64,000 nt of DNA from a virus, in IMG/VR virus record IMGVR_UViG_3300034069_000907, positions 4,016 through 68,015 of that record; one strand, written 5' to 3'. Made by a program: the position numbers and the translations under genes. Below, piece after piece: positions 41,435 to 60,515 of the stretch. Position 1 is the stretch's first letter. Every line of letters begins with the position of its first letter. Below the pieces are notes generated by a model. The model did no database searches and had not been told where the DNA came from. It was given only the letters and a program-made list of their open reading frames with translations.

Positions 41435-43126
41435 TTAAATTCCGTTGAGGGTATTCCGGCGCTTCACCACCATGGAGCGCCAGAGGCCGTCGAGAACCGG
41501 ATCCGCGCCGGCCTTCAGAAGCTCGGTGCGCTCGGGGAATGTCGCGGTGCCGATGTCGTTGACCACGGGCACGGTCTCCGCGGCCCCGAGCTCCGCGGCG
41601 AGGCGCTCGGTGAAGGCCTTCGCCCGCGCCGCCACGTCGTCGCCGGCACCTTCCCCGTCAGCAGGTGGAGCCGTGGGCTCTTCAGGCTTCGGATCCGGCT
41701 TGCGCTCCTTGGCGACGCTGAGGCCGTTCCAAATCGTCTCCATCTGCTTCTGGAGCGCCTTCCGATCCTCGACAGTCATCTTGCCGCTCTCAACGAGCTC
41801 CCGACGGATTTCCTTTGTGCCGGCCCACAACTCGGTGAGGCGCGCGTAGTCGACTCCCGGGGCCTGCATCTCCGCGATGATCCAGGCGCGATACTCCTCG
41901 TGTGACGACGTCGGCGGACCATCGGCAGGTGGAGCACCCGGGCCGTCAGCATCCGCGCGCGCATCGGACTGCGCCTTGAACTCCAGGTATTCGGGCTCCC
42001 GCACCTCGACCATGCCGGCGGGTGCCGTGCCGTCATCGGTCTGGACGTAGGCCTTGCGGTCCGGATCGATGAAGAACCGCGGCTTGTGCGCGATCGGCTT
42101 CACGCGAGCGAGGGCGGCCTCGTGCATGTCCTGGTACCGCTGGCGCTCCGTCATCGAGAGCTCACCCTCTACGGTGCCCTCGAAGGTCTCGTGCGCCTGG
42201 TCGACGTCCGACGTGGTCTTGCAGGTTGCGAACAGGTCGCGCGCCTCATCGAGCCAGGCCTCCGGATCGAAGGGCTCATCATCGAGGGCATCCTCATCCT
42301 CCTGGTCGGAATTGAAATTCACGGTGCTGACCGGCTTCTCTTCCGTGAATTCGGCATCCTCAACCGGCGGTGCAGTCGGGCCCTCGGCCGCCCGCGGTGC
42401 CGGCTTCTCTTCGTCGGCAGGGGGAGCGGGCGGCGCCTCGATCGCAGGCGCGCCGGGCTGCTCAGAAATCGGCACGCTGGCGATCGGCGCCAGCATGGCC
42501 TGGCCTTCCATCTCCTCAGCGGCATAGTCGTTGCCGATCTCCTCCGGGAACGCCTTGCGCAGCGCGGCCGCCTCGGCGCACTTCTCGAGTTGCGCGTTGC
42601 CGCGCTTCTTCCACATCTCGTTAGGCTCGGTGCTGCGGCCCTTCTTGGCGTAGGTCTCGAGCCAATAGACTTTCGGCCCGACGAACTTGCACTTCACGCC
42701 ATCGAGGTTCCGATAGACCGTCATCCTGGCCCACTCGGGGAAGGTGAGCGTCACCCCATTGCCAAAGTCGTGGGTGATCCGCGGGCCTTCCTCCGTCTCG
42801 TCGGCGCCGGCGTATTGCCCGGTGCGGAACGCAGTGGTCCGGAGCTCGGAGATCCCGGGCCACACAGTCTCCACCTCCATGCGGCGCTGAGAGTCCCACA
42901 TGGGAACGATGTGCACCGGACGCTTGAACGGATCGAGCTTGCGCGTCTTGCAGTAGGCAAGCGCCATAACGACGGAATCGATGGACTTCGCCGCGGGGTA
43001 AACCGCCCCGACCAGGACGTTCCACGACGTCTTGTCGATCCCCAGGCCGTCGAAACGCTCCGCGATCGCCGGGTGCCAGGGTAGACGTGGGCCTTCAAAT
43101 ACGGCCACCTGCTGATTGTCGCTCAT
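41435..43126 (-). CDS. bet: single-strand annealing recombinase Bet (RecT/Red-beta family) with long acidic C-terminal extension
   Basis: YCKTRKLDPFKRPVHIV, GISELRTTAFRTGQYAG, MWKKRGNAQLEKCAEAAALRKAFP motifs. Confidence 0.9.
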   Translation of the reverse strand: MSDNQQVAVFEGPRLPWHPAIAERFDGLGIDKTSWNVLVGAVYPAAKSIDSVVMALAYCKTRKLDPFKRPVHIVPMWDSQRRMEVETVWPGISELRTTAFRTGQYAGADETEEGPRITHDFGNGVTLTFPEWARMTVYRNLDGVKCKFVGPKVYWLETYAKKGRSTEPNEMWKKRGNAQLEKCAEAAALRKAFPEEIGNDYAAEEMEGQAMLAPIASVPISEQPGAPAIEAPPAPPADEEKPAPRAAEGPTAPPVEDAEFTEEKPVSTVNFNSDQEDEDALDDEPFDPEAWLDEARDLFATCKTTSDVDQAHETFEGTVEGELSMTERQRYQDMHEAALARVKPIAHKPRFFIDPDRKAYVQTDDGTAPAGMVEVREPEYLEFKAQSDARADADGPGAPPADGPPTSSHEEYRAWIIAEMQAPGVDYARLTELWAGTKEIRRELVESGKMTVEDRKALQKQMETIWNGLSVAKERKPDPKPEEPTAPPADGEGAGDDVAARAKAFTERLAAELGAAETVPVVNDIGTATFPERTELLKAGADPVLDGLWRSMVVKRRNTLNGI

Positions 43127-43135
43127 GGTAGTTCC

Positions 43136-44320
43136 TCAGCGAATGGAGGCGCGTTCGACGGACGTAACGCCCTTCATATCAGGCATGCCGGGCCCATAAT
43201 TACGGTAGATCTTGGCAACGAGAGCGTTGAGCAACTCGATCACTTCGGGGTTCTTCTTCAGTTGCTCATAGACCGCATCTTGATCCACGATTGTCGGGAC
43301 CATCACGATCTTGGCGGAGCTCTTCCGGCCCTGTGCGCCCTTGAACGAAGTCGGAGGAGCCGAGACCTGGACAGGTTCGGGCGTCGGAGCGAGCGCAGGC
43401 GGCGGCGCGACGGGCGGCGGGGTCGCTGCTGCTGGCTTGCCGGCCGTAGGGGGCTGCGCTGCTTTCCTGGCGGCCTCAGCCTCGCGGGCCGCCGCTGCCT
43501 CGCGTTCCTCAGCCGCGCGCCTCTCGGCCGCCGCAGCAGCTTCCAAGGCGCGCACCCGGGCGATCTCTGCCGTGGTGTGATCTTCGATCGCCTTGCGGAG
43601 CTTGTCTGCGAGCCCTTTGGTGTCCTCGATCAGCGGGAACCACGCGGCATCCACTGCCCGGCCAGCCTCGAGGTGCGGCTCCTTCTCGGCCTTGTGCGCC
43701 TTCTTGGCTTCGCCCGCCAACGACGTGAGGCGCGAGCGGAGGCCCTGCGCGGCGTCACCCTCTTCCTGAGATGTGACCTTGGCGAGCTTCTCGACCTGGG
43801 GCTTGGCGGCTTCGATCTGCGCGCGGAGAGCCTCGAGGGTCATCTCCTCGATCTCTTCCTCGCTGGCACCGCTGTTGTCGCCGATGACGCCCGGGCGCGC
43901 CGGCGGCGGATCCTTCGGCTTGTCCGCGGCCACAGGGATGGGCTTGAGGTTCAGGTGCTCAGGCCACTCGCGGTTCGCCATCCAGGCCTGGTAATCCTCG
44001 TATGTGATCGGGTGTCGGCCGATGTACGAGAACACTTTGAAATCGTAATCCTCCTCGGCCTCAGCAGAGTCGAGGATCACCTTCGTCCGGTCGGACATGC
44101 CGGTCTTGCAGTGCTTGAAGCCGTCGGAGGCGATCCAGATAGCGACCGGAAACCAGACGCCGGTGGAGCGGTTCTGCGTCCGGTAATAGCCGATCGGCAC
44201 CATCGCTAAGGGCACCTCGAGTTTCTTACCCTTCAGCGCAGCCTGCCAGAACTTCCAGCCGATCGTGTCGGGCTTGGGCGGAGTGCGGCGCTGCGGGGGA
44301 ATGTCGGCCTGTTCGTTCAC
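43136..44320 (-). CDS. coiled-coil hypothetical protein adjacent to Bet (394 aa)
   Basis: Long ORF; HKAEKEPHLEAGRAVDA helical motif; Pro/Ala linker. Confidence 0.8.
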   Translation of the reverse strand: MNEQADIPPQRRTPPKPDTIGWKFWQAALKGKKLEVPLAMVPIGYYRTQNRSTGVWFPVAIWIASDGFKHCKTGMSDRTKVILDSAEAEEDYDFKVFSYIGRHPITYEDYQAWMANREWPEHLNLKPIPVAADKPKDPPPARPGVIGDNSGASEEEIEEMTLEALRAQIEAAKPQVEKLAKVTSQEEGDAAQGLRSRLTSLAGEAKKAHKAEKEPHLEAGRAVDAAWFPLIEDTKGLADKLRKAIEDHTTAEIARVRALEAAAAAERRAAEEREAAAAREAEAARKAAQPPTAGKPAAATPPPVAPPPALAPTPEPVQVSAPPTSFKGAQGRKSSAKIVMVPTIVDQDAVYEQLKKNPEVIELLNALVAKIYRNYGPGMPDMKGVTSVERASIR

Positions 44321-44517: not shown

Positions 44518-44639
44518 AGGCGCCTCGCGATTTGCGGCCGGCGCTCCAACGCCCACGCGCGCACAGCGGCGGGGCGGTCGGGTGAATGACGAGCTCATTC
44601 GTGCCAGCAGGAATTTCGGGATTTCGAATTTCGGAAATT

Positions 44640-44668
44640 AATTTGGCAGGGATTTACTACCCCGTAAA
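44640..44668 (-). promoter_or_regulatory. candidate sigma70 promoter TTTACG-N17-CAAATT
   Basis: -35 at 44668-44663, -10 at 44645-44640; same architecture as 47283-47311. Confidence 0.5.
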
Positions 44669-44818
44669 CCCGCAAAATTCCGGAAAATGCCTGAAAATAG
44701 CGAAGGGCCCCCCGAGTGTCCCGGAGAGCCCTTCTAAGTGCAGCCCCAGGGTCCAGGGCCGCTCGCGATGAAATTGAAATACACGAGTTTCTTTACAGTT
44801 CCAATACGCCTGCCAAAT

Positions 44819-45007
44819 TTAATTTGAGGCCTCGAGCGCCTCCACCGCTTTGACGGTATCTCCTGCGGCCCCAACGAGCTCGGCAATCACGAGCAGGATG
44901 GTGGAGACGGCGGGAGGTGTGTGCTTGGCGCGCTCGCGCAGGCTGTCCTGGTAGGTCTCGGCGACGAAGGCCAAGGCGTCCGAATCCGTGGCAAGGCTCT
45001 TTTGCAT
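44819..45007 (-). CDS. small hypothetical protein (62 aa), first gene of the leftward operon
   Basis: AAGGAG SD 7 nt before ATG. Confidence 0.7.
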   Translation of the reverse strand: MQKSLATDSDALAFVAETYQDSLRERAKHTPPAVSTILLVIAELVGAAGDTVKAVEALEASN

Positions 45008-45026
45008 AGTGCTCTCCTTGGGTCTG

Positions 45027-45082
45027 AAAAAGGAGGAGCCGGCGAGAGGCTGGCAGCATCTTGCCCCAGCATCGCCGGCTCC
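45027..45082 (-). terminator. terminator/attenuator hairpin just before the first leftward gene
   Basis: 11-bp stem (45035-45045 with 45072-45082) followed on the minus strand by TCCTTTTTC. Confidence 0.55.
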
Positions 45083-45653
45083 GAGATCCCCGCGTTCCCC
45101 CCGAAGGCAGGCCGATCCGGGTCTCTCACCGGATTGCAGAGGGTCTCCTCCACCTTCCGGCCGGGATCAGGCGCCCGAAGGCCCTGCCCGTTATTGCCCT
45201 CACGGGCATCTGTGTGAGGCCAGAGTTCCGAGCCTAAACGGGTGGATTAGGTCCGCCGTGCTGTCGGTCTCTGGCCTCTACGGCGCGAGGTGCTCGCAAG
45301 ACCGGGTGTTACCGGCGTTGTCGGCCTCCGCCGATTGAGCCCCGATGTGGGGCATCTGTGCGAGGCTCCGGAGCCCAACGGCCTTTCGGCGGACTCTCCG
45401 GAGCCTCTATCCGCTGGACCCTCGCCAGAGATGAGCAGCGGAATTTGAATTACGATGCCAGGATGGAATATGCGGGGCAGCGCTTCCATCCTGGCGATCC
45501 CCCGGCACGGCCGGCTGGGCAGTTGGTTGTGTGTGAACGCAACCCGGGGGACGTGATGAAACTCCCACCGATCGAGATTTCCCGCAATTAAATTAAATTT
45601 CGCGAAACTCGAATTTCCGGAAATTGACTCGCCCCGAAATTGGGCGCTAAACG

Positions 45654-45690
45654 AAAAGGCCCCGGCGAGCGCTACCAACGCTCCCGGGGC
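45654..45690 (-). terminator. rho-independent terminator-like hairpin
   Basis: GGCCCCG/CGGGGCC plus GAGCG/CGCTC stem, followed by TTTTC on the minus strand. Confidence 0.55.
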
Positions 45691-46223
45691 CGATGATCGG
45701 TTTCGCTTGCTGGCGGGACAACCGACGTAGCCACCCTTAGCGGATGCCGCTGAGGGTTTCCAGGGGACGCCCCTGGAATGGCGTCTGTTTCCCTCTGAAA
45801 ATCGAAATTGATCCGTAGCGTCATCGTGGCGATGTGCTCAGGCACGGCGCTGACCGTTGAACGACGCAACCCGCGGGCATCGAGAGTCCTACGGCGGGCA
45901 ACGGAGAACAGAGGACGGGGATCCCGAAAGGGCCCTGCCGGAGGCGTGCGCGCCAACGGTGAAGATGCCCCCTCCCGCGGGGATTCTCCCTGGGGGTAAG
46001 GGGGCATCTTTCGGGTTTCTCCCAACCCTTCCAGTTCAATCCTGAAACATACTCTGTTCTTGAACGATTCAGGTTGAGGAATCGCGCGAGAGTTCTGCCG
46101 ACATAATCTGGCAGAATTTTTTCGAGGCAGAAAAGATTGGACTGCGGATCTCCGCGATAGCTCGAGATCAATAAGCGCTGATCTTCACAGCCAAGATCTA
46201 TCGACCGTGAGGCGAAACGGGCA

Positions 46224-46264
46224 ACGAAATTTCGTCTAACGAATTTGGTCCGACGATTTTTCGT
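46224..46264. promoter_or_regulatory. two operator-like palindromes ACGA-N4-TCGT
   Basis: ACGAAATTTCGT 46224-46235 and ACGATTTTTCGT 46253-46264, partial site between them. Confidence 0.45.
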
Positions 46265-46506
46265 TCACGCCAAGTGTGAGTTGCTTCGAGATCATCCCTC
46301 GATTGCCTTCGAGAAAGCGAGATCCGGCGAGATTTGGCCGAGTGTTCTTTTTTCGTTCCTTGGCGCGGTATCTCGGCCTAACCTGCGGCACCCAAGATGA
46401 GAGCAAGATACGGCTTCATATTTTTTCGTCAGACCAGTTTTAATTCCGCTGGGAGTAGATATATTCGGAGCAACGCATCGACGGCCACCACACGTCGCAG
46501 GGTCCA

Positions 46507-47229
46507 GTGTCAGAGCACCACCCGATAGCCCACGCTTCCGTCGCTCACATGGTCGCGGCAAACCTGCCGCCGGACCGTGCGACCCGTCAGAAGATGATGG
46601 ATGACCTCTTCGCCCGTACGAACCTCGAGCGGGAGATGGTTCGGAAAGCCCGCGAGGAAGCCAAAGCAATGGCGACCCGCAAGATGATGGGCGAGCGCTT
46701 CGACATCGATCCCATCGCGATCCAGATGGTTATGCGCCTCAACTACATGCCACCGCAGCGCCGGGCGAAAGTCTGGACGCAGGTGCAGATCCTCGCCAAC
46801 GACATCGGCCTTGATGAGGACGTGCCCGTTGAGGAGGAGGAAGAGACCGGCCCCGTGTTCGATCGCAGCCGCACCGGCCAGCGCCAGGGCGGTTCGAACA
46901 TCGGCCCTGAGGGTGCACGCGCCGCCCGTGGCGAGAGCCGCAGCGTGATTCGCACCCGCGTAAACCTGAAGATGGCTGAGGAGATGATGGAGCGCGCTCG
47001 AAAGGGCCTGCCCATGCGCCACCGAGTCGGCCGGCCGTCGAACGAAGAGCGCGCCGCCCAGGCCTATGCCGAGCAGCGGCTTGAGGAGGAGTTCGACATC
47101 GCCCGGCAGAGGGATAGCGATCAGCGAGTGATCGAGCACCAGGCCTCCCCGCCGGCCGAGCAGCAGGCGGAGGGCGGGCACCAGGCGGAGCGCCAGGATC
47201 CGCCAAGGGCCATAGACCTCGAGGATTGA
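46507..47229 (+). CDS. GapR/DUF2312-like protein with long C-terminal extension
   Basis: FDIDPIAIQMVMRLNYMPPQRRAKVWTQVQILANDIGL aligns by eye with the GapR C-terminal helices. Confidence 0.55.
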   Translation: MSEHHPIAHASVAHMVAANLPPDRATRQKMMDDLFARTNLEREMVRKAREEAKAMATRKMMGERFDIDPIAIQMVMRLNYMPPQRRAKVWTQVQILANDIGLDEDVPVEEEEETGPVFDRSRTGQRQGGSNIGPEGARAARGESRSVIRTRVNLKMAEEMMERARKGLPMRHRVGRPSNEERAAQAYAEQRLEEEFDIARQRDSDQRVIEHQASPPAEQQAEGGHQAERQDPPRAIDLED

Positions 47230-47282
47230 TCGACCACAGCGGCCCCCACGAGGGGCCGTTTTAATTTCGGGCAATTTCGAGA

Positions 47283-53588: not shown

Positions 53589-54002
53589 ATGGACATCGAA
53601 AAGACCCTCCCCCTGGCGGCGGGTATCGCCTCCGCATTCGTGTCGAACCACCACGTCGCTCCTGGTGACATCCCCCGCCTCCTTGCTGAGACCCACGCTG
53701 CGGTGATCGCTGAGGCGAACGGCAAGAGCGCCTACGGATCAGCAGTCGAGCCCGACAAGCCGACGCCGCGCACGCCGTCTGAGGTCAAGAAGTCCATCAC
53801 TCACGACAAGCTCATCAGCTTCGAGGATGGCAAGCCGTACCGGACCCTGCGCCGACACCTCACGACGCTCGGCCTCACCCCGCAGGCTTACCGGGTGAAG
53901 TGGGGCCTTCCGGCCGACTATCCCATGACTGCGCCTGGCTACACCGAGATGCGGTCCAAGCTCGCGAAGTCCATCGGGCTCGGCCAGCGCCCTACCGCGT
54001 AG
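53589..54002 (+). CDS. mucR: Ros/MucR family transcriptional regulator, Cys-less finger variant
   Basis: AGIASAFVSNH, VKKSITHDKLISFEDGKPYRTLRRHL..LGLTP..YRVKWGLPADYPMTAPGY..MRSKLAKSIGLG. Confidence 0.93.
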   Translation: MDIEKTLPLAAGIASAFVSNHHVAPGDIPRLLAETHAAVIAEANGKSAYGSAVEPDKPTPRTPSEVKKSITHDKLISFEDGKPYRTLRRHLTTLGLTPQAYRVKWGLPADYPMTAPGYTEMRSKLAKSIGLGQRPTA

Positions 54003-59632: not shown

Positions 59633-60244
59633 TCAGTCTCGGATCTCATAAGAGCGCGGGAGCTCCCACTCGCGGGGCGCACCGGCGCCGGGGCCGTCAT
59701 AGGCGCGCCAGGTCTCCCGCTCGGCGGAGTTGAACCGGCGGCACGCACGATCCCGGCCGGGCCCGGGCTTGGCGACGCCACACGCGGCCAAGGCGCGCCA
59801 CTTCGGGGCGACGTGCTGTCCTGAGGCGGCCAGGGCATCGGAAGGCGTGGCGAGCGGCGCCAGGAGCGCCAGGGCCAGGACGGCGAACGGCACGCCGAAC
59901 AGACGCACGGAAAGCCGATTCCACCACGTATCGCGGATAGGGCCGCCAAGGCGCATCGAGACCATGTGCGCCTCATCCTGGCGCGCGCGGATGGTGCGCC
60001 GCTCGGCAGGCGTCAGGAACTCATCGCGCTCCAGCATGTGCAGGGCGCGCACGGCCGCGTCGGCGGCTTCCTTGCCGTAGGTAGAGACCCACGCATCGGC
60101 CCGCGTCTCGATGGCGCGATCCCGGGCCCGGTAGAACTCGACGCCGGCCAGAAGATCCTGAGCGACCGCCTCGATGGCTTCCGCCGCAAGGGCATGGGCG
60201 CAGGCCTGGATGGATGGGTCGGAGTTGATCTTAGGAGCGGCCAT
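59633..60244 (-). CDS. membrane protein with possible BA14K-like C-terminal motif
   Basis: TM LFGVPFAVLALALLAPLA; ACRRFNSAERETWRAYDGP. Confidence 0.6.
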   Translation of the reverse strand: MAAPKINSDPSIQACAHALAAEAIEAVAQDLLAGVEFYRARDRAIETRADAWVSTYGKEAADAAVRALHMLERDEFLTPAERRTIRARQDEAHMVSMRLGGPIRDTWWNRLSVRLFGVPFAVLALALLAPLATPSDALAASGQHVAPKWRALAACGVAKPGPGRDRACRRFNSAERETWRAYDGPGAGAPREWELPRSYEIRD

Positions 60245-60515
60245 GGCGGGCGATCTCTGTCCGGTGGAGGGAAGCGACGGCCCGGAGGCGCTCGACGCCT
60301 CCAGGAAGCGAGGCGAGGCCTAGAAGCTGGGTCAGCCAGAAAGGCGGCTCCAGGCGCTCAGGGTCGCCGATCTCCCGGAACCACCGGGCGACCGTGGGCC
60401 GCCGGGTGCCAGTGAGCTCGGCGAGCTCCGTTGACGTGATGCCGAGCTCCTGGAGCGCCTGATCTAGGGACTCAGGCGGGAGGCGGCGGAACTCGAATTC
60501 GCGGGACATGGGCAT
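60231..60515 (-). CDS. XRE-family HTH protein
   Basis: LDQALQELGITSTELAELTGTRRPTVARW; GAGG SD. Confidence 0.8.
   Translation of the reverse strand: MPMSREFEFRRLPPESLDQALQELGITSTELAELTGTRRPTVARWFREIGDPERLEPPFWLTQLLGLASLPGGVERLRAVASLHRTEIARHGRS

What the first reader, a model, noticed from the sequence alone, without database searches (positions are those of the whole stretch)
45010..46012. About 1 kb of densely structured non-coding sequence where the repressor gene should be
Seen: stems at 45035-45082 (11 bp, U-tract), 45116-45133 (GAGA loop, minus), 45168-45186 (cUUCGg, minus), 45186-45207, 45362-45407 (12 bp, inner GAAA loop, minus), 45457-45495 (12 bp), 45658-45690, back-to-back 45733-45757 and 45758-45778, long-range ACCGTTG/CAACGGT 45853/45954 enclosing CCC-GAAA-GGG, and 45962-46010 (12 bp). 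Tetraloops favour the minus strand left of the AT-rich patch at 45586-45650, while a G-U pair and a GAAA loop weakly favour the plus strand to its right. Known: HK022 put RNAs, P4 CI RNA and P1 C4 RNA control antitermination or immunity through RNA structure. Inference: one or two large regulatory RNAs, possibly divergent, forming an undescribed RNA-based lysis/lysogeny switch.
Basis: partly seen in the sequence, partly recalled or inferred. Interest (0 to 1): 0.8.

Follow-up and report, generated by a model that had tools for sequence, protein, structure and literature searches.

The report
Two structured RNAs at phage early promoters
The gene-free 1.5 kb between the two early operons of this uncultivated temperate phage holds two conserved, elaborately folded non-coding RNAs that match no described RNA family. 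They probably control whether transcription proceeds into the early genes.

Summary
Window 45008-46506 is non-coding: there is no codon periodicity in composition or in substitutions. It folds far better than shuffled sequence (z -4.9 and -6.5).

Ten syntenic relatives from public assemblies show it is better conserved than the neighbouring genes. It consists of two separable modules.

- **R (about 45658-46100, plus strand).** It starts just behind a TTGAC-N18-CTAAAC promoter kept in all 11 sequences. Its 217-nt core is 96.5% paired, against 46-50% in slid controls. 24 of 54 pairs covary. A pseudoknot has 66 of 66 standard pairs. GNRA and UUCG loops and many G-U pairs exist only on the plus strand. 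A phyllosphere metatranscriptome holds a contig covering R only.
- **L (about 45580-45026, minus strand).** Its 3' block (45215-45030) is 96.7% paired, with 16 of 61 pairs covarying. It ends in an intrinsic terminator 27 nt before the first early-left gene.

No Rfam 15 family matches either module. The "RNA-based lysis/lysogeny switch", the long-range 45853/45954 pairing and the GATGCCC trans-pairing are not.

Most likely both are cis-acting leader RNAs that govern termination or antitermination (inferred). The scan has noted analogous, non-homologous structured leaders in other phages, but this sequence family only in this window.

The parts
45612..45625 (.). Perfect 14-bp palindrome AATTTCCGGAAATT overlapping the -35 of the R promoter; operator-like site
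   Evidence: 15 sites with at most 3 mismatches in the window against 0.96 expected, mostly in AT-rich intergenic patches. Three lie at 45576-45625. Its function is inferred.
45624..45652 (+). Promoter of R: -35 TTGACT (45624-29), 17-nt spacer, -10 CTAAAC (45647-52); start of transcription estimated at about 45657-45661
   Evidence: TTGAC-N17/18-CTA(A/G)AAC is kept in all 11 homologues although the spacer and the upstream sequence differ completely in the distant ones. It is the only match to this pattern in the 64-kb window. It resembles the alphaproteobacterial sigma-70 consensus (my own knowledge). The start site was not measured.
45658..46100 (+). R RNA. 5' hairpins: P1 45658-45691, P2 45697-45725, P3 45733-45757, P4 45758-45778. 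Conserved core 45804-46020. Conserved 3' tail to about 46100.
   Evidence: - Homologous block 45610-46100 in 11 loci.
- z -4.92.
- alifold -71 on plus against -41 on minus; 142 against 26 G-U cells.
- Core: 96.5% paired, 24 of 54 pairs compensatory, 0 of 500 shuffles as good.
- In relative L092 the block runs to the ribosome-binding site of the first gene.
- A metatranscriptome contig lies on 45666-45940.
45812..45877 (+). Core helices Ha (45812-15/45874-77), Hb (45818-22/45863-67) and hairpin Hc (45828-51)
   Evidence: Ha 44 of 44 standard pairs, with G-U/G-C exchanges. Hb 55 of 55, with 4 of 5 pairs covarying. Hc 95-100%.
45854..45904 (+). Pseudoknot: PK1 45854-59 with 45899-904, continued by Hd 45870-73 with 45895-98. 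The 3' strands lie in the loop of the invariant hairpin He (GUCCU 45886-90 / AGGAC 45912-16).
   Evidence: PK1 66 of 66 standard pairs, 3 of 6 pairs with changes on both sides, slid controls 20-45%. Hd shows CCCG:CGGG, CCGG:CCGG and CCUG:CAGG variants (read from A6). He is invariant in 11 of 11.
45917..45959 (+). Hairpins Hf (45917-36, GNRA loop GAAA/GAGA/GUGA) and Hg (45938-59, UUCG loop in distant homologues)
   Evidence: helices 9 and 10 are 100% paired, 4 pairs covary. The loop motifs are meaningful only on the plus strand.
45962..46010 (+). Long terminal hairpin Hh of the R core; terminator-like stem but only a weak U-tract (UUUCGGGUUUCU)
   Evidence: I15; helices 11 and 12, 12 covarying pairs. 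The terminator scan did not call it. The tails in relatives are not U-rich.
45030..45215 (-). L RNA, conserved 3' block: five abutting hairpin domains with two UUCG loops and GNRA-type loops, the last domain being the terminator
   Evidence: 96.7% paired against 36-49% slid. 16 of 61 pairs compensatory. 0 of 500 shuffles as good. alifold -91 on minus against -69 on plus; G-U cells 35 against 7. Found in 8 loci, including the distant L095.
45026..45082 (-). Intrinsic terminator of L: 11-bp GC-rich outer stem 45082-45035 plus the tail UCCUUUUUC. It lies 27 nt before the ATG (45007) of the first early-left gene.
   Evidence: helices 5 and 6, 98-99% paired. A U-tract follows directly in the window, L088, L086, L087 and L095. 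In L085, L089 and L093 a second hairpin with a U-tract is inserted.
45216..45440 (-). L RNA, variable middle: two copies of a roughly 146-nt unit (long hairpin GAGGC...GCCUC, then RCACAGAUGCCC, then a small hairpin). Copy number differs among relatives.
   Evidence: D6, I14; L087 lacks 45220-45365; L085 lacks about 45355-45430.
45440..45580 (.). Conserved 5' block of the left module (12-bp hairpin 45457-95; helix CCCCCGG/CCGGGGG). Probably the start of L, but the strand is not resolved.
   Evidence: alifold -40.3 on minus against -43.6 on plus. Absent from L095. The promoter of L is not pinned down.
46101..46506 (+). Spacer between R and the 240-aa gene: non-coding, conserved only in close relatives, with invariant motifs such as CAGTTTTAATT and TAGATATATTCGG
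   Evidence: 16.7% divergence to L089, against 5.4% in R. Function not determined.
44819..45007 (-). First early-left gene (62 aa). Relatives carry an unrelated 92-98-aa gene in this slot, while the non-coding flanks are kept.
46507..47229 (+). First rightward gene (240 aa, no family match). It was used to find the relatives.
   Evidence: period-3 substitutions, p = 2e-38.

Best explanation
The gap holds two divergently transcribed, conserved, highly structured non-coding RNAs.

R (plus strand, about 45658-46100) is made from a host-type promoter at 45624-45652. It folds into some ten helices with a covariation-supported pseudoknot. It forms the 5' leader of the rightward early operon (240-aa gene ... 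Ros/MucR ... DnaB).

L (minus strand, about 45580-45026) is a modular chain of hairpin domains. Its last domain is an intrinsic terminator directly in front of the leftward early operon (62-aa gene, exonuclease, RecT).

Most likely both act in cis on the transcribing RNA polymerase. They would decide whether it stops at, or reads through, the terminators at the head of each early operon. That is a put-like or attenuator-like control of early gene expression.

Shown here: non-coding nature, conservation, secondary structure, strand (R core and L 3' block), the R promoter, and the L terminator. Inferred: the start of L, the 3' end of R, and the whole regulatory mechanism.
For: **RNA nature and structure.** See (non-coding, z -4.9 and -6.5). 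See for R: 96.5% paired against 46-50% slid, 24 of 54 compensatory pairs, pseudoknot 66 of 66, 142 against 26 G-U cells. See for L: 96.7% paired, 16 of 61 compensatory pairs, G-U 35 against 7.

**Stronger constraint than on the neighbours.** Divergence from L089 is 5.4% in R, 9.1% in the 240-aa gene and 16.7% in the spacer. The left-hand gene was swapped for an unrelated one while L was kept.

**Promoter.** TTGAC-N17/18-CTAnAAC is kept in 11 of 11 sequences with unrelated spacers.

**Leader position.**
- In L092 the R block runs to the ribosome-binding site of the first gene.
- L's terminator lies 27 nt before the ATG, with no room for a promoter.
- L's structured domain abuts the terminator stem with no spacer. 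This is the arrangement reported to suppress intrinsic termination ('tug-of-war', bioRxiv 10.64898/2026.06.17.733018).

**Need for read-through.** Strong intrinsic terminators follow the first gene on each side: minus strand 44734-44702 and plus strand 47238-47260.

**Expression.** A phyllosphere metatranscriptome has a 301-nt contig on 45666-45940 at depth 20, against 2-3 for contigs on the 240-aa gene.
Against: - No transcript ends were measured. The metatranscriptome evidence consists of assembled contigs and could include DNA.
- Hh lacks a good U-tract, so R may have no terminator of its own to regulate.
- The AT-rich patches behind the in-operon terminators could be separate promoters, which would make antitermination unnecessary.
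- R and L are 5-8 times larger than put RNAs and share no sequence or fold with them.
- The higher depth of R than of the downstream gene would also fit a stable, stand-alone RNA.
- The promoter and 5' end of L are not identified, and the strand of 45440-45580 is unresolved.
Confidence: 0.45

Rival explanations
1. L and/or R are stand-alone, trans-acting regulatory RNAs. They could be immunity RNAs of the P4 CI or P1/P7 C4 kind, or an abundant prophage RNA. They would act by base pairing or by binding a protein rather than on their own transcription complex.
For: - R appears in RNA libraries as short contigs limited to R, at higher depth than the downstream gene.
- L ends in a good terminator.
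- The window and its closest relatives share the octamer AGAUGCCC twice in L and its complement in the 3' arm of Hh.
- R occurs without L, and part of L without R, so each is an autonomous module.
Against: - The complementarity is lost in L087 and L093 without compensating change, and is absent from the distant R-bearing loci.
- There is no match to C4 or any other Rfam family.
- In L092 R continues straight into a gene.
- Palindromic operator-like sites at the R promoter suggest protein-based control.
Confidence: 0.2
2. R is a ligand- or factor-sensing riboswitch-like leader. Its pseudoknotted core would be an aptamer for a metabolite, ion, tRNA or host/phage protein. Binding would set expression of the rightward operon and couple the lysis-lysogeny or replication decision to host physiology.
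For: - The core is complex and pseudoknotted, with an invariant hairpin He and invariant joining nucleotides.
- It sits in a 5' UTR.
- It is followed by a long hairpin (Hh) that could serve as an expression platform.
Against: - The downstream genes differ between groups and share no metabolic theme.
- No conserved alternative pairing with Hh was found.
- Hh is a poor terminator.
- R is large for an aptamer.
Confidence: 0.12
3. R and L are 'ornate' large RNAs with a non-regulatory role. They could be an RNA scaffold or multimer, a decoy against a host defence, or the RNA part of a ribonucleoprotein, as has been suggested for other large phage-associated RNAs (GOLLD, ROOL).
For: - Size: 360-550 nt.
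- Dense helices and a pseudoknot, with conservation above that of the neighbouring genes.
- Phage location. GOLLD and ROOL are phage-associated large RNAs of unknown function that form RNA-only assemblies (PMC12286853).
Against: - No similarity to those families.
- The fixed position directly behind early promoters and in front of operons is more typical of cis-regulators.
- No consistent partner gene.
Confidence: 0.13
4. The stems act at the DNA level or are incidental. They could be a replication origin, a cluster of terminators or REP-like palindromes, or protein-binding sites, with no functional RNA.
For: - An AT-rich patch with repeated motifs lies in the middle.
- Hairpins score on both strands in single-sequence folding.
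- A DnaA-box-like TTATCCACC lies upstream of the R promoter in distant relatives.
Against: - G-U pairs are strongly strand-asymmetric: 142 against 26, and 35 against 7.
- GNRA and UUCG loops are conserved on one strand only.
- There is a covarying pseudoknot and a conserved promoter.
- None of these has meaning for duplex DNA.
Confidence: 0.05

Closest known systems
HK022 putL / putR RNAs (cis-acting, protein-independent processive antiterminators; my own knowledge)
   Same: - RNA elements encoded directly behind the two divergent early promoters of a temperate phage.
- They lie upstream of terminators that must be passed to express the early operons.
- No recognisable N-like gene.
   Different: - put RNAs are about 65-75 nt with two stem-loops. 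R is at least 360 nt with about ten helices and a pseudoknot, and L is about 550 nt.
- No sequence or fold similarity.
- The activity is untested here.
P4 CI RNA and P1/P7 C4 RNA (RNA-based immunity; Rfam C4 family)
   Same: - Non-coding RNA in a phage immunity or early region.
- A leader with a terminator.
- In the window, a short repeat in L and its complement in R.
   Different: - No covariance-model match.
- The complementarity is not conserved.
- These RNAs are about 70-80 nt and are processed from the leader.
'Tug-of-war' antitermination (Bushhouse, Fu and Lucks, bioRxiv 10.64898/2026.06.17.733018)
   Same: A stable folded domain placed immediately upstream of an intrinsic terminator, as at the 3' end of L (no spacer between helix 4 and the terminator stem).
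   Different: It was described for ZTP riboswitches and synthetic constructs. No ligand or aptamer is known for L, and the effect on termination is untested.
Large ornate bacterial and phage RNAs: GOLLD, ROOL, OLE (PMC12286853)
   Same: Large, richly structured, conserved RNAs of unknown function. GOLLD and ROOL are often found in phages or prophages.
   Different: - No homology.
- R and L are smaller.
- R and L sit in a defined regulatory position.
Structured leaders behind early promoters noted earlier in this scan (e1-340774, e1-382999, e1-299656, e1-140275)
   Same: The same genomic logic: an ORF-free, pseudoknotted leader between an early promoter and the first early gene in phages that lack an N gene.
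   Different: Different hosts (enterobacteria, phiKMV-like phages) and unrelated sequences. These are unchecked AI notes, not evidence.

Membership tests
Any Rfam 15 family (including C4, GOLLD, ROOL, OLE, HEARO, raiA, 6S, riboswitches, ribozymes) | Covariance-model score at or above the family's gathering threshold | tested here: not met
   0 matches in the whole window; the best sub-threshold score is 23 bits against a 64-bit cutoff (scr5239, E 0.36); all others are weaker.
HK022 put RNA | Encoded in the transcript just downstream of the early promoters and upstream of terminators | tested here: met
   - The R promoter is at 45624-52, directly before R.
- The L terminator and the in-operon terminators were found.
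- The start of L is only inferred.
HK022 put RNA | A two-stem-loop RNA of about 70 nt with the conserved put fold | tested here: not met
   R has about ten helices and a pseudoknot over at least 360 nt. L has at least six domains.
HK022 put RNA | Makes RNA polymerase terminator-resistant in cis, without protein factors | not testable with these tools
   Needs in vitro transcription or reporter assays.
P4 CI / P1 C4 immunity RNAs | The RNA is complementary to repeated target sites in the regulated leader, and this is conserved among relatives | tested here: not met
   The octamer AGAUGCCC / GGGCAUCU is shared only in the closest relatives. It is broken in L087 and L093 and absent from L092, L094 and L096.
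Intrinsic (Rho-independent) terminator (3' end of L) | GC-rich hairpin directly followed by a U-tract on the transcribed strand | tested here: met
   Stem 45082-45035 followed by UCCUUUUUC on the minus strand. The stem is 98-99% paired, with covariation.
Intrinsic terminator (Hh at the end of the R core) | GC-rich hairpin directly followed by a U-tract | tested here: inconclusive
   The 12-bp stem is conserved and covaries. The tails are only weakly U-rich, and the scan did not call it.
Structured non-coding RNA (generic) | Conserved base pairs with compensatory changes above controls; not protein-coding | tested here: met
   0 of 500 shuffles as good; slid controls 36-50% paired against 96.5-96.7%; no coding signal.
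Riboswitch | Aptamer with a defined ligand, plus an expression platform that forms alternative structures | not tested
   No ligand can be inferred, and no conserved alternative pairing was found by inspection.

The most novel reading that the evidence does not exclude
R and L are a new class of large, pseudoknotted phage RNAs that reprogram host RNA polymerase without any protein. That would be put-like processive antitermination with a completely different and much larger fold. Alternatively, they themselves set immunity, giving temperate phages of Alphaproteobacteria-type hosts an RNA-run early switch.
Probability: 0.25. Interest if true: 0.8.

Novelty: new variant of a known kind. Interest (0 to 1): 0.62.

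Why it matters
Large bacterial or phage RNAs with complex, covariation-supported tertiary folds are rare, and each has opened new biology.

This phage has two of them, at the place where temperate phages decide between early programmes, and no antiterminator protein is recognisable. If they act on RNA polymerase, factor-independent RNA antitermination would no longer be known only from HK022-type coliphages. It would extend to unrelated phages of high-GC, probably alphaproteobacterial, hosts from plant and soil habitats.

The pseudoknotted 217-nt core of R is compact and well defined, so it suits structure determination and in vitro transcription assays. Both covariance models can be used at once to annotate metagenomic phages.

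Tried and rejected
**Homologue searches that gave nothing**
- Nucleotide search of the phage collection: no match.
- The repeat GGGCATCTGTGYGAGGC in IMG/VR hit only a Pro/Ala-rich coding repeat in an unrelated circular contig; chance.
- The exonuclease and 240-aa proteins have no relatives in IMG/VR.
- Eighty RecT-bearing IMG/VR loci share only exo-RecT. They have no homologous intergenic region by blastn, nhmmer or either covariance model.
- Exact-pattern scans of the viral, metagenome and genome collections gave nothing or only chance hits.
- The R DNA against 400 sampled genomes of the class of a Reyranella MAG (Alphaproteobacteria) gave only short chance matches, rejected by the model.

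So the host was not identified. Ros/MucR, the promoter type and the habitats suggest an alphaproteobacterium; this is an inference.

**Readings rejected**
- Protein-coding.
- The conserved GATGCCC trans-pairing.

**Left open**
- P1 (45658-91) followed by UUUUCGUUU on the minus strand could be a leftward terminator. The U-tract is absent in distant homologues while the -10 element is kept, so it is read as part of the promoter and P1.
- The strand of 45440-45580 and of the R 5' hairpins could not be settled from G-U counts alone.
- Family searches of the genes next to R in distant relatives were uninformative.
Full report
**Setting.** The window is most of a 68.7-kb IMG/VR virus record with about 64% G+C. 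Genes to the left of the finding run leftward: a 62-aa gene (44819-45007), a 93-aa gene, an exonuclease (43136-44320), a RecT-type annealing protein (41435-43126), a PrtN-like protein, and beyond them the integrase. Genes to the right run rightward: a 240-aa gene (46507-47229), 190-aa and 571-aa genes, DUF5131, a Ros/MucR regulator and a DnaB helicase. The finding is therefore the divergent early control region of a temperate phage.

The stretch 45008-46506 is non-coding:
- Frame-specific GC is flat there, while both flanks show the GC3 periodicity of a high-GC genome.
- Substitutions against relatives are spread evenly over the three codon positions in L, R and the spacer. In the adjacent 240-aa gene they pile up on the third position (p = 2e-38).
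- Indels are nearly all 1-2 nt.

Folding is well above chance:
- 150-nt windows give z of -2 to -6 on both strands from 45000 to 46200, and about 0 in the flanking genes.
- The R stretch has z -4.92 and the L stretch z -6.52.
- Rfam 15 gives nothing at gathering thresholds and only noise at E up to 10.
- No tRNA or tmRNA is present.

**Relatives.** DNA searches of the phage, viral, metagenome and genome collections found no homologue. Eighty IMG/VR loci with a related RecT share only the exo-RecT pair.

Protein look-ups through the two genes that border the gap worked. The 240-aa protein and a 92-98-aa family that replaces the 62-aa gene in relatives led to assembled contigs with the same layout.

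- The close relatives (L085-L090, L093) align over the whole gap.
- L091, L092, L094 and L096/L097 share only the right part, about 45610-46100.
- L095 shares only the left 3' part.

The gap therefore consists of two autonomous modules. Both are better conserved than their surroundings. Divergence from L089 is 5.4% in R, 9.1% in the 240-aa gene and 16.7% in the spacer 46101-46506. L is kept even where the adjacent gene has been exchanged for an unrelated one.

**Module R (plus strand).** In all 11 sequences a TTGAC hexamer is followed, 17-18 nt later, by CTA(A/G)AAC. The spacer and the upstream DNA are unrelated in the distant group. In the window this is 45624-45652, and it is the only such site in 64 kb. 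It resembles the sigma-70 promoter consensus of Alphaproteobacteria (my own knowledge). It places the RNA start at about 45657-45661, at the foot of hairpin P1.

RNAalifold gives -71 kcal/mol on the plus strand against -41 on the minus strand. The same helices contain 142 G-U cells on plus and 26 on minus.

A covariance model of the 217-nt core (45804-46020) recovers exactly the 11 loci. On the model alignment:
- 96.5% of cells are paired, against 46-50% when partners are slid.
- 24 of 54 pairs change on both sides, against 2-9 in slid controls.
- No shuffle out of 500 reaches any of the five measures.

My own counts on the MAFFT alignment add a pseudoknot:
- 45854-59 pairs with 45899-904 in 66 of 66 cells, with three covarying pairs.
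- It is extended by 45870-73 with 45895-98.
- Both 3' strands lie in the loop of the invariant hairpin GUCCU/AGGAC.
- The pseudoknot crosses helices Ha and Hb, which are themselves 100% paired; Hb has 4 of 5 pairs covarying.

GNRA loops (GAAA, GAGA, GUGA) and, in distant members, UUCG loops make sense only on the plus strand.

The core ends in a long covarying hairpin (45962-46010). Its tail is only weakly U-rich, so it is at best a weak terminator. Homology continues to about 46100. In L092 it reaches the ribosome-binding site of the first gene, so there R is a roughly 450-nt 5' UTR.

**Module L (minus strand).** The conserved 3' block (45215 down to 45030) folds to -91 kcal/mol on the minus strand against -69 on the plus strand, with 35 against 7 G-U cells. 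On the model alignment:
- 96.7% of cells are paired, against 36-49% slid.
- 16 of 61 pairs are compensatory.
- 0 of 500 shuffles do as well.

The block carries two UUCG loops and GNRA-type loops on the minus strand. Its last domain is a GC-rich hairpin (45082-45035) followed by UCCUUUUUC, an intrinsic terminator. This leaves 27 nt, including the AAGGAG ribosome-binding site, before the ATG at 45007. In three relatives an extra hairpin with a U-tract is inserted instead.

The structured domain upstream abuts the terminator stem without a spacer.

The middle of L contains two copies of a roughly 146-nt unit, and the number varies among relatives.

The 5' block (45440-45580) is conserved, but its strand is not resolved. 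I could not pin down the L promoter; candidates lie in the AT-rich patch.

**Control region between the modules.** A perfect 14-bp palindrome, AATTTCCGGAAATT (45612-25), overlaps the -35 of the R promoter. Fifteen sites with at most three mismatches occur in the window, against about one expected, mostly in AT-rich intergenic patches. The distant group has different inverted repeats (GGAATACC / GGTATTCG) in the same place. This looks like protein operators of differing specificity, so the promoter itself is probably protein-controlled.

**Expression.** Parts of the region occur in runs of about 16 studies: plant, straw, phyllosphere, groundwater, soil and wastewater.

In a phyllosphere metatranscriptome, a 301-nt contig lies on 45666-45940 at depth 20. 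Contigs on the 240-aa gene have depth 2-3, and nothing lies on L. These are contigs, possibly from several strains, and DNA carry-over cannot be excluded. I count this as weak support for an abundant R transcript that begins near the predicted start.

**How it probably works.** Both modules sit directly behind the early promoters and in front of the early operons.
- L ends in a terminator that every leftward transcript must pass.
- Strong terminators also follow the first gene on each side: minus strand 44734-44702 and plus strand 47238-47260.
- No N- or Q-like protein is recognisable.

The most economical reading is that L and R are cis-acting leaders that set termination or read-through. They could render the polymerase terminator-resistant, as HK022 put RNAs do (my own knowledge). 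Alternatively, stable structure placed right before a terminator could suppress it, as in 'tug-of-war' antitermination.

I put about 0.45 on this mechanism, and about 0.9 on the underlying statement that these are two conserved structured RNAs.

The rivals are:
- stand-alone trans-acting or immunity RNAs (0.2);
- ornate RNAs with another role (0.13);
- a riboswitch-like sensor (0.12);
- DNA-level elements (0.05).

**Novelty.** Neither module matches Rfam 15, and neither was found in the searchable literature. The kind of element is known from put RNAs: a structured leader RNA behind a phage early promoter. Earlier notes of this scan on other phages describe analogous, unrelated leaders; those are unchecked notes, not evidence. 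The folds, the sizes and the phage group are new, so I rate this a new variant of a known kind.

**Limits.**
- There are only 11 R sequences (about 9 distinct) and 8 L sequences.
- The host is unidentified.
- No transcript ends are known.
- The mechanism is entirely inferred.

Noticed in passing
window 8719, 18318, 34155, 44626, 44675, 45576-45625, 47263, 47298, 53484, 53495, 54451, 60918: The palindrome AATTTCCGGAAATT and near copies occur 15 times against about 1 expected. Most lie in AT-rich patches between genes and behind terminators. This looks like the operator set of one phage-wide DNA-binding regulator; candidates are the Ros/MucR, HTH or 240-aa proteins.
   Followed up: partly
window 44600-45007 compared with L085:3975-4467, L086:4070-4568, L087:1-383: The first early-left gene is a replaceable slot. 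The window has a 62-aa gene where relatives have an unrelated 92-98-aa gene. The non-coding flanks on both sides are conserved at 80-86%: L with its terminator on one side, and the terminator 44734-44702 with its AT-rich patch on the other.
   Followed up: partly
window 44702-44734 (minus strand) and 47238-47260 (plus strand): Strong intrinsic terminators lie directly after the first gene of each early operon. Each is followed by an AT-rich patch that carries the palindrome motif.
   Followed up: no
L091:3545-3620, L092:3093-3165, L094:1009-1080 (upstream of the R promoter): Distant R-bearing phages replace the AT-rich palindromes with inverted repeats GGAATACC / GGTATTCG. L091 and L092 also carry a DnaA-box-like TTATCCACC there. 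This looks like a different operator (immunity) specificity in front of the same RNA.
   Followed up: no
L095:560-610: Downstream of the L terminator in this relative lies a tRNA-like T-arm fragment (GGGGTTCGATTCCCTGGCC). It may be a remnant of an attachment site or a tRNA-like element.
   Followed up: no
L087:1340-1660: One relative has an insertion of about 330 nt with a 108-aa ORF between R and the 240-aa gene.
   Followed up: no
window 60231-60515 (minus strand) and 53589-54002 (plus strand): A 94-aa Xre-type HTH protein sits in a leftward cluster at the right end of the window, and a Ros/MucR regulator sits in the rightward operon. Both are candidate protein regulators of the switch.
   Followed up: no
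window 45658-45691 read on the minus strand: Hairpin P1 of R is followed on the opposite strand by UUUUCGUUU in the close relatives. It could double as a terminator for leftward antisense transcription across R. The U-tract is missing in the distant homologues.
   Followed up: partly
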